Of a stretch of DNA of 1,242 nucleotides, positions 1 through 859 are shown piece after piece (within the stretch, counting starts at the first letter, position 1; each line of letters starts with the position of its first letter). Both the position numbers and the translations under genes were made by a program. The notes below the pieces were generated by a model. The model had not been told where the DNA came from, ran no database searches, and was given only the letters and a program-made list of their open reading frames with translations. The stretch is from Escherichia coli (GTDB lineage: Bacteria; Pseudomonadota; Gammaproteobacteria; Enterobacterales; Enterobacteriaceae), in assembly GCF_003334385.1 (NCBI RefSeq), contig NZ_QOWN01000120.1; one strand, given 5' to 3'.

Positions 1-692
1 ATACTGCCGGGGATCTCAATCACCCCGGACGGCCTGCCGCCATTTCTGAAAAAAGACGTTGAATTTGCCTGAATATGATGCCCCTGCGTGGCCGCCAGCC
101 CGGCAGCATACACCGGCGGCAGCCCCACAAGCGGATGAAAAAAACAGTTAAACCGGTCGTGGATCACTTCCCTGGCAGGCACCGTCACCGCCTCCGTGAT
201 CCCGCAGTTCCGGTCCGGTGTAATGCGATAGAACACCTCGCCGTCATCCGCCACCAGAGGTTCAACCCGGCTCCAGTCCAGAATACGCAGTTCTTTGATC
301 TGCCCCCGGGCATTACGGATTTTCAGCACCACCGTATTGCCGTGACGCAGTTTGGCGTTCAGCCACAGTTCAAAAAACTGGATACGATTCTGCTGTGCAT
401 TGGGACGACGACAGAGACGGGCAATATCCCCCCGGCGCGTTTCCCTGCGTATCCCATGCGCATCCGTCTGCATAAGACGCAGCCGCATTTTGGCGATATC
501 CTGGGATATCAGCGAAATACATGCAAACACCGCATGAAAGGAGAGGACGGCTTCAGGATCGGCTTTCACGCCCTGCTGCCAGGCGCCGGAAAAGGGCTCA
601 GCCACCGCCTGAAACAGGCTGGTCCAGCCCGCCTCTCTTACGTCACGTCCTGATTTCTGGTTTTTTCGGGTTCGCCGTAAAAGGTTCCACAT
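1..692 (-). CDS. Phage portal protein, HK97 family (Pfam Phage_portal PF04860-like); N-terminal ~230 codons, 3' end beyond window left edge
   Basis: Hand translation of the minus strand gives an uninterrupted frame from ATG at 692..690 to position 1: MWNLLRRTRKNQKSGRDVREAGWTSLFQAVAEPFSGAWQQGVKADPEAVLSFHAVFACISLISQDIAKMRLRLMQTDAHGIRRETRRGDIARLCRRPNAQQNRIQFFELWLNAKLRHGNTVVLKIRNARGQIKELRILDWSRVEPLVADDGEVFYRITPDRNCGITEAVTVPAREVIHDRFNCFFHPLVGLPPVYAAGLAATQGHHIQANSTSFFRNGGRPSGVIEIPGS... It contains the motifs I recall as characteristic of HK97-type portals: AVFAC-ISLIS near the N-terminus (cf. AVYAC..LIS) and FFRNGGRPSGV (cf. FFxNGAxPSGV). In-frame TGA lies immediately upstream of the ATG (at 707..709). 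GGAG at 704..701 sits 8 nt upstream of the ATG. Third codon positions are G/C-rich, consistent with coding. Not in the supplied ORF track because there is no stop inside the window. Alternative in-frame start: GTG at 605..603. Confidence 0.8.
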   Translation of the reverse strand, partial: MWNLLRRTRKNQKSGRDVREAGWTSLFQAVAEPFSGAWQQGVKADPEAVLSFHAVFACISLISQDIAKMRLRLMQTDAHGIRRETRRGDIARLCRRPNAQQNRIQFFELWLNAKLRHGNTVVLKIRNARGQIKELRILDWSRVEPLVADDGEVFYRITPDRNCGITEAVTVPAREVIHDRFNCFFHPLVGLPPVYAAGLAATQGHHIQANSTSFFRNGGRPSGVIEIPGS

Positions 693-859
693 TCGCCATG
701 CTCCGCATCACGTTTCTTTTTCTGACCTGCCGGACGTCGCACCGTGATGTACTCCGCCTTTCCCAGGCGAACCAGCACCTCCGCACACGGCTGTGCCACA
801 TCACGGATATCCCCGGCCCGGGCATCATGCGTGCCCTGCAGATATCGGATCTTTGCCAT
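638..859 (-). CDS. Hypothetical small protein (73 aa) between capsid and portal genes; function not assignable from sequence (possibly a head-completion or adaptor-type protein by position only)
   Basis: ORF in track: MAKIRYLQGTHDARAGDIRDVAQPCAEVLVRLGKAEYITVRRPAGQKKKRDAEHGECGTFYGEPEKTRNQDVT. ATG is the first start after an in-frame TAA. G/C-rich third positions and a balanced, charged composition look like real coding, unlike the alternative-frame ORF 643..828. Its 3' end overlaps the proposed portal start by 55 nt (638..692) in a different frame. No family recognised by eye; no evident similarity to lambda gpW. Confidence 0.45.
   Translation of the reverse strand: MAKIRYLQGTHDARAGDIRDVAQPCAEVLVRLGKAEYITVRRPAGQKKKRDAEHGECGTFYGEPEKTRNQDVT
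701..704 (-). promoter_or_regulatory. Candidate Shine-Dalgarno (GGAG) for the portal gene
   Basis: Minus-strand GCGGAGcatggcgaATG: GGAG lies 8 nt upstream of the ATG at 692. Seen directly in sequence; lies inside the coding region of the upstream small ORF. Confidence 0.4.

What the first reader, a model, noticed from the sequence alone, without database searches (positions are those of the whole stretch)
605..859. Small ORF overlaps the portal start by 55 nt; portal start codon is ambiguous (ATG 692 vs GTG 605)
The 73-aa ORF (frame A) ends at TAA 640..638, while the portal frame opens with ATG at 692 (preceded by GGAG at 8 nt, and by an in-frame TGA). This gives a 55-nt out-of-frame overlap, which is long for simple translational coupling. 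If the portal instead starts at the in-frame GTG at 605, the overlap disappears and a 32-nt gap results, but then the first 29 residues (MWNLLRRTRKNQKSG...) are not translated and the AVFAC motif sits only about 25 residues from the N-terminus. Either the small ORF is real and overlaps substantially with portal, or it is a fortuitous ORF in an extended portal leader. Because portal is needed at about 12 copies per capsid versus hundreds of capsid subunits, an overlapping upstream ORF could serve to throttle portal translation.
Basis: partly seen in the sequence, partly recalled or inferred. Interest (0 to 1): 0.45.

Follow-up and report, generated by a model that had tools for sequence, protein, structure and literature searches.

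The report
Small conserved gene overlapping portal start
The 73-codon reading frame is a real, conserved small phage gene between the capsid and portal genes of an E. coli prophage; the portal starts at ATG 692, and the 55-base overlap is a lineage-specific run-on past a junction where many relatives have a stop codon, so the arrangement is ordinary and already annotated.

Summary
All genes are on the minus strand: capsid C-terminus (1242..904), a 73-aa ORF (859..638), and the portal N-terminus (692..1). The region is the head module of an E. coli lambdoid (Stx-phage-type) prophage. It occurs in 1244 of 5426 complete E. coli genomes, and RefSeq already annotates this exact overlap.

The small ORF is a genuine gene (PHROG 829, function unknown). 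Its position between capsid and portal is kept in 15 lineages, and its core has dN/dS of about 0.14. It folds as a 40-residue beta-beta-alpha-beta domain followed by a disordered basic tail.

The portal starts at ATG 692. The N-terminus MWNPFRRKE and a GGAG 7-8 nt upstream are conserved, and GTG 605 is not a start codon in SP-016, the one relative read at that codon.

The overlap itself is not conserved. Eight relatives have a 1-nt T(A/G)ATG junction. E. coli has GAA at that codon and runs on for 18 codons. Other lineages overlap by 37-88 nt, in either frame. The run-on tail shows no sign of selection in its own frame, on few sites.

So the idea of a throttle built on the overlap is not supported. 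A conserved SD-hairpin-ATG layout upstream of the small gene is the more interesting by-product. Interest is low.

The parts
904..1242 (-). C-terminal 112 codons plus stop (TGA 906..904) of the major capsid protein. In full-length relatives this is a 645-aa fusion of an S78 protease and an HK97-type capsid protein. The gene runs off the window.
   Evidence: Translation. PHROG 617 'major head protein', E = 2.9e-33. RefSeq 'phage major capsid protein'. Pfam Peptidase_S78 plus Phage_capsid on homologues.
890..894 (-). GGAGG Shine-Dalgarno-like motif directly 5' of the hairpin, 31 nt before the small ORF's ATG. It is the only SD-like motif for the small ORF in most lineages.
   Evidence: Sequence. 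The motif is conserved next to the stem across lineages.
868..889 (-). Conserved RNA hairpin (9-bp stem, GUGC loop, about -19 kcal/mol) between the capsid stop and the small ORF start. An 8-nt spacer (867..860) follows, then the ATG.
   Evidence: Fold. 96.9% of cells are paired, against 50-66% when the 3' partners are slid, and 3 pairs change on both sides. A889G plus T868C is compensatory in E. coli variants. It is not a canonical terminator and matches no Rfam family.
638..859 (-). Small gene of 73 codons plus TAA, a member of PHROG 829. Codons 1-40 (859..740) form the folded core. Codons 41-55 (739..695) form a basic linker, RRPAGQKKKRDAEHG. Codons 56-73 (694..641) are a run-on tail inside the portal gene.
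   Evidence: family. (AF2: pLDDT about 90 for residues 1-40 and 54-75 for the rest). (selection).
701..704 (-). GGAG Shine-Dalgarno of the portal gene, 8 nt before ATG 692. It is encoded inside the small ORF (Ala-Glu codons).
   Evidence: Sequence. Invariant in 64 of 64 E. coli-type sequences. GGAG or a variant sits 7-8 nt upstream in relatives.
692..694 (-). Junction codon GAA of the small ORF; its last base is the A of the portal ATG. Eight related lineages have TAA or TGA here, which gives a 1-nt stop/start overlap.
   Evidence: Position 694 is G in 63 and A in 1 of 64 sequences, never T. An exact scan of IMG/VR found 0 junctions with T[AG]A and at least 120 with [AG]AA in the E. coli-type context.
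1..692 (-). First 230 codons of the HK97-type portal protein, starting at ATG 692..690. The gene runs off the window and is 454 aa in the closest full-length relative.
   Evidence: TIGR01537 at 175.7 bits, cut-off 112. PHROG 2271, E = 6e-163 from residue 1. N-terminal alignment. ORF in L001.
638..692 (-). The 55-nt out-of-frame overlap. The portal frame is -1 relative to the small ORF.
   Evidence: Variable sites: small frame S2/N11, portal frame S5/N8.
603..605 (-). GTG, portal codon Val30. It is an internal codon, not the start.
   Evidence: The equivalent codon is GTC in SP-016. The position is Ile or Val in relatives. Codons 2-29 have dN/dS of about 0.11 in lineages without an overlap.
708..710 (-). 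TGA in the portal frame, which closes that frame upstream of ATG 692.
   Evidence: It is T710A (AGA) in 2-3 variants.

Best explanation
The window covers the capsid / small gene / portal junction of the late (head) operon of an E. coli lambdoid, Stx-phage-type prophage, read on the minus strand.

Shown:
- The 73-codon ORF is a genuine gene of a conserved small-protein family (PHROG 829).
- The family always sits between the protease-capsid fusion gene and the portal gene.
- The protein has a roughly 40-residue beta-beta-alpha-beta domain and a variable, disordered, lysine/arginine-rich tail.
- The portal is translated from ATG 692, which has its own GGAG 8 nt upstream. GTG 605 is an internal valine codon.
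- The overlap length is not a conserved feature. Eight relatives end the small gene with T(A/G)A fused to the portal ATG, the classic 1-nt stop/start junction.
- The E. coli lineage has GAA at that codon. The small ORF therefore runs on for 18 more codons in the +1 frame of the portal, to the next chance stop (TAA 640..638).

Inferred:
- In the E. coli lineage this is a stop loss (TAA to GAA, one base, upstream of the portal ATG), because that lineage is nested among 1-nt lineages in rough trees.
- The run-on tail is tolerated because it extends an already disordered tail. It evolves as the portal frame dictates.
- Portal initiation relies mainly on its own SD and ATG. Ribosomes translating the small ORF pass over that site and terminate 52 nt downstream. 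The ancestral termination-reinitiation coupling is therefore probably weakened rather than turned into a dedicated throttle.

Speculative:
- The small protein may act as an accessory head-assembly or DNA-packaging factor, in the manner of lambda gpFI. Its folded domain would sit on the capsid lattice and its basic tail would bind DNA non-specifically.
For: Identity and context:
- The sequence is in 1244 of 5426 complete E. coli genomes.
- RefSeq annotates capsid, a 73-aa hypothetical protein and a portal from the same ATG.
- The same module is present in Stx phages.

The small gene is real:
- PHROG 829 at E = 3.7e-39.
- 40 representatives in a profile search, many of them 50-57 aa.
- The capsid, small gene, portal order is kept in all 15 lineages.
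- Core dN/dS has a median of 0.14 between lineages. Within the E. coli clade pN/pS is 0.33.
- In the AF2 model residues 1-40 have pLDDT of about 90 and the rest is disordered.

The portal starts at ATG 692:
- An in-frame TGA lies 18 nt upstream.
- MWNPFRRKE is conserved from codon 1, with synonymous third-position changes.
- Codons 2-29 have dN/dS of about 0.11 in lineages with no overlap.
- ATG and GGAG are invariant in 64 of 64 sequences.

The overlap is labile:
- Overlaps are 1 nt in 8 lineages, a 3-nt gap in one, and 37, 55, 82 and 88 nt in one frame.
- They are 56 and 83 nt in the other frame.
- The window lineage is nested among 1-nt lineages in neighbour-joining trees of portal and capsid segments.
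- The tail has pN/pS of 1.45 in its own frame and 0.47 in the portal frame.

Function lead:
- Two family members carry a C-terminal HeH/SAP DNA-binding domain.
- gpFI is described as bound to the prohead lattice and acting through non-specific DNA binding (PMC4856287).
- The YqbF gene lies directly after the capsid gene (PMC11526630).
Against: - The direction of change at the junction (stop loss versus stop gain) rests on rough neighbour-joining trees of short segments from mosaic phages. Deeper lineages (L090, L091, L092, L226) mostly carry extended forms.
- The selection contrast within the overlap rests on only 13 variable sites and is not statistically significant.
- The 73-codon form is fixed in every E. 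coli-type sequence seen. That is compatible with it being useful.
- In some relatives (L091, L226) the only basic cluster of the tail is encoded inside the overlap, so the run-on may not always be neutral.
- No expression, proteomic or ribosome-profiling data were available.
Confidence: 0.78

Rival explanations
1. The long overlap is an adaptive device. Ribosomes translating the small ORF run through the portal ribosome-binding site and terminate far downstream, which lowers portal synthesis to the roughly 12 copies needed per capsid.
For: - The 55-nt overlap is fixed in all 64 distinct E. coli-type sequences.
- It is present in at least 120 IMG/VR contigs, with no stop-bearing variant.
- Extended overlaps occur in 6 of 15 lineages.
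- Here the portal lies downstream of the very abundant capsid gene, so some down-tuning is needed.
Against: - Eight lineages with the same module use a 1-nt TAATG/TGATG junction.
- Overlap lengths (37-88 nt) and frames differ among the rest.
- The portal keeps a conserved SD of its own.
- The RNA around the portal start is not unusually structured (z = -0.57).
- The tail codons show no purifying selection in their own frame.
- A conserved hairpin after the capsid gene is a more likely site of down-tuning.
Confidence: 0.1
2. The run-on tail is functional. The +1 frame of the portal's basic N-terminal codons would supply extra residues to the small protein's tail, so the overlap is kept for the small protein's sake.
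For: - In L090, L091 and L226 the overlap encodes GEKKKR, GEKKN..RRQ and KKNRSRRQ clusters.
- L091 and L226 lack a basic stretch before the junction.
- Tails in the family are generally K/R-rich, or are replaced by HeH/SAP domains.
Against: - In the window the basic stretch (QKKKRD) lies before the junction, and the run-on part (ECGTFYGEPEKTRNQDVT) is net acidic.
- Eight lineages do without any run-on.
- Two lineages read the overlap in the other frame, giving acidic tails (L092, L227).
- Of the 13 variable sites in the tail, 11 change the amino acid in the small-ORF frame.
Confidence: 0.08
3. The portal starts at GTG 605. The small ORF then does not overlap it, and positions 692-606 are an untranslated leader in the portal frame.
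For: A GTG start would remove the overlap. GTG is present in 63 of 64 E. coli-type sequences.
Against: - Residues 1-29 are conserved as protein, with third-position variation, in lineages where nothing overlaps them (dN/dS about 0.11).
- The codon is GTC in SP-016, and the position is Ile in L090 and L094.
- PHROG 2271 aligns from residue 1.
- GGAG precedes ATG 692. No SD was looked for upstream of 605, beyond reading the sequence.
Confidence: 0.02
4. The 73-codon ORF is a chance open frame, or the two frames are joined by programmed -1 frameshifting into a fusion protein.
For: The portal frame is -1 relative to the small ORF. An A6 run lies in the overlap (666..661).
Against: - The ORF belongs to a conserved family under purifying selection.
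- There is no X XXY YYZ heptamer in the small-ORF frame between 707 and 641 (read).
- The frame relation differs in L092 and L227.
- Eight lineages place a stop before the portal ATG.
Confidence: 0.01

Closest known systems
Stop/start-overlapping, translationally coupled gene pairs in phage late operons (ATGA / TAATG junctions, for example lambda W-B; from general knowledge)
   Same: A small gene lies immediately upstream of the portal gene in one operon. The portal SD is embedded in the upstream coding sequence. Eight close relatives have exactly the TAATG/TGATG junction.
   Different: In the window the junction codon is a sense codon (GAA). The upstream ORF therefore ends 52 nt inside the portal gene, and coupling by termination-reinitiation at the start codon is no longer possible in its simple form.
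PHROG 829 (phage protein family of unknown function)
   Same: Full-length HMM match at E = 3.7e-39. All the distant homologues tested fall in the same PHROG.
   Different: The profile is 63 positions long and many members are 50-57 aa. The window protein carries a 10-18 residue extension that the profile does not cover.
Lambda gpFI (DNA-packaging chaperone; C-terminal domain PDB 2lsm)
   Different: No detectable sequence similarity. The domain order is reversed (folded domain N-terminal here, C-terminal in gpFI). The protein is about half the size. The fold is small and common, and bL9-N and GINS score higher. Function is untested.
B. subtilis prophage YqbF (PDB 2hjq) and FluMu gp35 (PDB 2out): small proteins with a C-terminal HeH/SAP-like domain. 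YqbF's gene lies directly after the capsid gene.
   Different: The window protein has a short disordered basic tail instead of an HeH domain. The similarity is weak, and the function of these proteins is also unknown.
Hairpin-bridged (split) ribosome-binding sites, as described for T4 genes 38 and 25 (from general knowledge, not checked in the literature here)
   Same: Upstream of the small ORF, GGAGG lies directly 5' of a stable conserved hairpin, and 6-8 nt separate the hairpin from the ATG. Folding would bring the SD to a normal distance from the start.
   Different: There is no experimental evidence here. The same hairpin could instead act as a stabiliser or attenuator of the capsid mRNA 3' end.

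Membership tests
HK97-type phage portal protein (TIGR01537 / PF04860) | Profile match above the curated cut-off | tested here: met
   TIGR01537 at 175.7 bits against a cut-off of 112.05, residues 45-229. PHROG 2271 'portal protein', E = 6e-163, from residue 1. PF04860 on full-length homologues.
HK97-type phage portal protein (TIGR01537 / PF04860) | Start codon fixed by a conserved N-terminus and ribosome-binding site | tested here: met
   MWN(P/L)(F/L)RR is conserved from codon 1 in 11 lineages, with third-position variation. GGAG or a variant lies 7-8 nt upstream. ATG and GGAG are invariant in 64 of 64 sequences.
PHROG 829 small phage protein | Profile match over the family core | tested here: met
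   E = 3.7e-39, residues 1-63 on profile positions 1-63 of 63. Eight distant homologues fall in the same PHROG.
PHROG 829 small phage protein | Gene located between the capsid and portal genes (this subfamily) | tested here: met
Stop/start-overlap translational coupling (TAATG / ATGA) | The upstream stop codon overlaps or abuts the downstream start codon | tested here: not met
   In the window the junction codon is GAA and the stop lies 52 nt downstream of the ATG. The feature is met in 8 related lineages.
Lambda gpFI-like packaging chaperone | Gene directly downstream of the major capsid gene | tested here: met
   Capsid stop at 906..904 and small ORF start at 859. The position of FI after E in lambda is from general knowledge.
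Lambda gpFI-like packaging chaperone | Structural similarity to the gpFI C-terminal domain | tested here: inconclusive
Lambda gpFI-like packaging chaperone | Sequence homology to gpFI | tested here: not met
   A profile search of PDB sequences at E <= 10 did not return 2lsm. No Pfam match.
Lambda gpFI-like packaging chaperone | Binds proheads and DNA, and stimulates terminase-prohead docking | not testable with these tools
   Requires biochemistry.
bL9 N-terminal-domain-like fold | beta-beta-alpha-beta domain superimposable on bL9-N, plus profile similarity | tested here: inconclusive
YqbF / FluMu gp35-type (N-domain plus HeH/SAP) | C-terminal HeH/SAP domain | tested here: not met
   Present in 2 of 30 family members (P0064, P0065) and absent from the window protein.
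Programmed -1 ribosomal frameshift fusion | Slippery X XXY YYZ heptamer in the upstream frame within the overlap, and a conserved frame relation | tested here: not met
   No such heptamer in the small-ORF frame between 707 and 641 (read). The frame relation differs among lineages, and 8 lineages have a stop before the ATG.
Intrinsic (rho-independent) terminator | GC-rich hairpin followed by a U tract | tested here: not met
   The hairpin 889..868 is followed by GUAACAGGUUAUG. The scan found 0 terminator-like sites. Some relatives have short U-rich stretches.
Hairpin-bridged split Shine-Dalgarno site | SD more than 20 nt from the start, a stable conserved hairpin between them, a 5-9 nt effective spacing once folded, and no proximal SD | tested here: met
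   GGAGG at 894..890, hairpin at 889..868 (-18.9 kcal/mol), 8-nt spacer. The same layout with 6-8 nt spacers lacking purine-rich motifs is seen in about 14 lineages. Pairing is conserved with compensatory changes. Function was not tested.

The most novel reading that the evidence does not exclude
PHROG 829 proteins would be a widespread, unrecognised class of gpFI-like head-assembly or packaging accessory factors. They have an L9-N-like domain and a non-specific nucleic-acid-binding tail, and are encoded right after the capsid gene. Their synthesis would be set by a hairpin-bridged split Shine-Dalgarno site. In several lineages their basic tail would be overprinted on the first codons of the portal gene, linking the amounts of this factor and of the portal.
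Probability: 0.15. Interest if true: 0.45.

Novelty: already known. Interest (0 to 1): 0.15.

Why it matters
The practical value is for annotation.

- The portal start (ATG 692) and the small gene as annotated by RefSeq are correct.
- Records that omit the small gene (for example phage 2851) are incomplete.
- The 55-nt overlap needs no special mechanism.

Two by-products may be worth a specialist's time:
- A conserved small protein family of unknown function sits between capsid and portal. Its fold and gene position recall lambda gpFI and YqbF.
- A conserved SD-hairpin-ATG layout could be a natural example of a split ribosome-binding site that tunes expression downstream of the most highly expressed phage gene.

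Tried and rejected
No match or no signal:
- Pfam gave no match for the 73-aa protein, even at E <= 10.
- NCBIfam gave no match.
- Rfam gave nothing meaningful in the window: sroE at E = 0.44, on the wrong strand and far below threshold.
- No sigma-70 promoter or canonical terminator was found.
- The RNA around the portal start and overlap (760..620) is not unusually stable (z = -0.57). A structure-based explanation of the overlap was therefore dropped.
- Programmed frameshifting was rejected. There is no slippery heptamer in the upstream frame, and the frame relation varies between lineages.

Searches that fell short:
- The search for related loci with the 30-sequence alignment failed because the alignment was too diverse. 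The narrower alignment gave only 7 genome loci.
- The first IMG/VR scan returned only near-identical E. coli-type loci.
- P0055 could not be located on a contig.
- The Popovic et al. 2012 gpFI paper is not held, so gpFI's mechanism is cited second-hand from PMC4856287.
- Literature searches for YqbF and DUF7302 gave little or nothing.

Not pursued:
- The long plus-strand ORFs (75..653 and 521..928) are antisense to a portal gene under clear purifying selection and were not followed up.
- The 55-aa 'partial' proteins are labelled partial by their sources and were not taken as evidence for a stop-bearing E. coli variant. The exact-pattern scan found none.
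Full report
**What is in the window.**
All coding sequence is on the minus strand.
- Positions 1242..904 encode the last 112 residues of a major capsid protein, with its stop at TGA 906..904.
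- Positions 859..638 are a 73-codon ORF (MAKIRYLQGTHDARAGDIRDVAQPCAEVLVRLGKAEYITVRRPAGQKKKRDAEHGECGTFYGEPEKTRNQDVT).
- Positions 692..1 are the first 230 codons of a portal protein (MWNLLRRTRKNQKSGRDVREAGW...), which runs off the window.

- ATG at 692, with GGAG at 704..701, 8 nt upstream.
- An in-frame TGA at 710..708.
- GTG at 605, which is codon 30.
- A 55-nt overlap, and a 32-nt gap if GTG were the start.

**Where it comes from.**
- The window matches 1244 of 5426 complete E. coli genomes at 90-99% identity, with up to 7 copies per genome.
- It also matches long-tailed Stx-converting and related phages such as BP-4795, 2851 and 1717.
- The surrounding gene order is HNH, small terminase, large terminase, a 645-aa S78-protease/HK97-capsid fusion, the small ORF, the portal, a second gene, then head-tail connectors.
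- RefSeq's pipeline already annotates the small ORF as a hypothetical protein (for example WP_001063093.1). It also starts the portal at the same ATG, giving the same 55-nt overlap.
- Some phage records omit the small gene (phage 2851).

**The small ORF is a real gene.**
- It matches PHROG 829 (unknown function) at E = 3.7e-39. It has no Pfam or NCBIfam match.
- A profile search of 1.8 billion cluster representatives found 40 relatives, many of them 50-57 aa. They share the core motif MKIRYLQxTHDxxxGDxKxV....AxVL(I/V)xLGxAEY, followed by a variable K/R-rich tail. All the distant members tested fall in PHROG 829.
- In every lineage where DNA could be fetched, the gene lies between capsid and portal. 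These include Salmonella phage FSL SP-016; Citrobacter, Phytobacter, Kosakonia, Pantoea, Kluyvera and Entomohabitans genomes; and several metagenome contigs.
- Core codons 1-40 have a median pairwise dN/dS of 0.14 between lineages. Within the E. coli clade pN/pS is 0.33.
- AlphaFold2 with the family alignment gives a confident beta-beta-alpha-beta domain for residues 1-40 (pLDDT about 90). Residues 41-73 are low-confidence and presumably disordered.

**The portal starts at ATG 692.**
- The in-frame TGA 18 nt upstream makes this the first possible start.
- In eleven lineages the protein begins MWN(P/L)(F/L)RRKE. Codon differences are confined to third positions (AAC/AAT, CCT/CCA/CCG/CCC, TTC/TTT, CGG/CGA/AGA/AGG).
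- In the lineages where nothing overlaps these codons, codons 2-29 have dN/dS of about 0.11. They are therefore translated.
- GGAG or a near variant sits 7-8 nt upstream of the ATG across lineages.
- ATG and GGAG are invariant in 64 of 64 distinct E. coli-type sequences.
- The equivalent of GTG 605 is GTC in SP-016. That position is Ile or Val elsewhere.

**The overlap is a labile junction, not a conserved device.**
The small-ORF codon that contains the A of the portal ATG varies between lineages:
- It is TAA or TGA in eight lineages (L003, L096-L101, L228). This gives the classic 1-nt TAATG/TGATG stop/start junction and a 55-56-aa protein.
- It is GAA in the window, CGA in L090, CAA in L091 and GAA in L226. 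These give overlaps of 55, 37, 82 and 88 nt in the same frame.
- L092 and L227 overlap by 56 and 83 nt in the other frame.
- A distant relative, L094, has a 3-nt gap.

The recurring 'ECGT' or 'NVEP' in the tails of homologues is simply the portal's ATGTGGAAC read in the other two frames.

In rough neighbour-joining trees of the portal N-terminus and capsid C-terminus, the window lineage groups with L227 and is nested among 1-nt lineages. A one-base stop loss (TAA to GAA at 694) is therefore the likely origin of the E. coli form. The polarity is not firmly established.

The E. coli form is fixed:
- All 64 distinct sequences encode 73 aa. Position 694 is G in 63 and A in 1 of them.
- An exact scan of IMG/VR found 0 E. 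coli-type junctions with T[AG]A, against at least 120 with [AG]AA.

Among the 13 variable sites inside the overlap, 11 change the amino acid in the small-ORF frame (pN/pS 1.45). Only 8 change it in the portal frame (pN/pS 0.47). The trend fits a tail that drifts under portal constraint, but the sample is too small for significance.

The RNA around the portal start is not unusually structured. No slippery heptamer for frameshifting is present.

**How it most likely works.**
The late transcript carries capsid, small gene and portal in series. The portal has its own SD and start.
- In most relatives, ribosomes finishing the small gene terminate on the portal start codon, which is termination-reinitiation coupling.
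- In the E. coli lineage they read through the portal initiation region and stop 52 nt further on.
- This probably weakens coupling and may transiently occlude the site. Nothing in the comparative data indicates that it was selected as a throttle.

These steps are inferred, not shown.

**A more likely regulatory element lies upstream.**
- Between the capsid stop and the small ORF there is a 9-bp GC-rich hairpin (889..868, about -19 kcal/mol).
- Its pairing is conserved across 14 aligned sequences. 96.9% of cells are paired, against 50-66% in slid controls, and three pairs have compensatory double changes.
- In essentially all enterobacterial lineages a GGAG(G) lies directly 5' of the stem. Only 6-8 nt, with no purine-rich motif, separate the stem from the ATG.
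- The hairpin is not a canonical terminator.
- Two readings remain open. It could be a split Shine-Dalgarno site brought into range by the hairpin (as described for T4 genes 38 and 25, from my own knowledge). Or it could stabilise or attenuate the mRNA 3' end after the highly expressed capsid gene.
- Either reading would set the level of the small protein and, through coupling, of the portal.

**Function of the small protein (speculative).**
- Sequence-profile matches to L9 are only marginal.
- Two family members replace the basic tail with an HeH/SAP DNA-binding domain. That domain resembles the one in FluMu gp35.
- YqbF is encoded directly after its capsid gene. So is gpFI in lambda (gene order E, FI; from my own knowledge).
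- The architecture here, a folded domain plus a basic or DNA-binding tail in the same gene position, fits that mode of action. Membership in the gpFI family is not supported by sequence, and the fold is small and common.

**Verdict.**
The start codon is not actually ambiguous once homologues are compared. The throttle idea is not supported.
- The arrangement is already annotated in thousands of public records and is an ordinary case of overlapping phage late genes.
- Interest is low. The conserved SD-hairpin-ATG layout and the uncharacterised post-capsid small-protein family are modest leads.

Noticed in passing
window 868-894 (minus strand), with the spacer 860-867: A conserved GC-rich hairpin lies between the capsid stop and the small ORF. 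GGAGG sits directly 5' of the stem, and only 6-8 nt without any SD-like motif lie between the stem and the ATG. About 14 enterobacterial lineages share this layout, with compensatory stem changes. It may be a hairpin-bridged split ribosome-binding site, or a stabiliser or attenuator of the capsid mRNA 3' end.
   Followed up: partly
L001 9551-12135; L002 6551-9130; L004 3168-5747; L005 3168-5914: RefSeq flags the portal of these prophages as a pseudogene ('frameshifted' or 'internal stop') in all six E. coli genomes inspected.
- In L001 the region is two intact ORFs (454 aa portal and 407 aa, with an ATGA overlap). Distant relatives SP-016, L090 and L092 have the same two-gene layout.
- Phage 2851 has a single fused 859-aa ORF.
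- For cases such as L001 the 'pseudogene' flag is probably an artefact of comparison with the fused form. L002 does have an internal stop, giving a 734-aa ORF.

   Followed up: partly
window 641-859 compared with its flanks: In the first sample of 51 distinct E. coli-type sequences, the small ORF and the overlap had far fewer variable sites per base (0.06-0.10) than the capsid end (0.20), the intergenic spacer (0.36) or the portal (0.25). The contrast shrank when more divergent sequences were added. The cause is unexplained: extra constraint near the portal start, or a recombination block.
   Followed up: partly
window about 712-724 (CAGAAAAAGAAACG), proteins P0032 and P0034: A few database proteins switch into the third frame after QK (…QKRNVMRSMANVEP…). 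This implies single-base indels in the A-rich run just upstream of the portal SD. They could be sequencing errors or real frameshift variants.
   Followed up: no
proteins P0064 and P0065 (family members); PDB 2out: Some family members carry a C-terminal HeH/SAP DNA-binding domain in place of the basic tail. That domain resembles the one in Mu-like prophage FluMu gp35. This points to nucleic-acid binding as the role of the tail.
   Followed up: partly
L001, L003, L090, L092 (whole head module): The gene order is unusual for an HK97-type head module: large terminase, a fused S78 protease-capsid protein (about 645 aa), the small gene, the portal, then a 340-440-aa gene with a faint CBM_5_12 hit, then connectors. 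The portal therefore lies downstream of the capsid gene.
   Followed up: no
window 708-710 and 603-605: There are rare variants in the E. coli clade.
- T710A turns the portal-frame TGA upstream of ATG 692 into AGA (2-3 sequences). This opens the portal frame further upstream.
- One sequence has ATG instead of GTG at 605..603 (Val30Met).

   Followed up: no
window 75-653 (+) and 521-928 (+): Long mechanical ORFs (192 and 135 aa) lie antisense to the portal and small gene. The 192-aa one is also open in relatives (L001 9590..10168, L004 3207..3785). They are probably a by-product of GC-rich coding sequence on the other strand.
   Followed up: no
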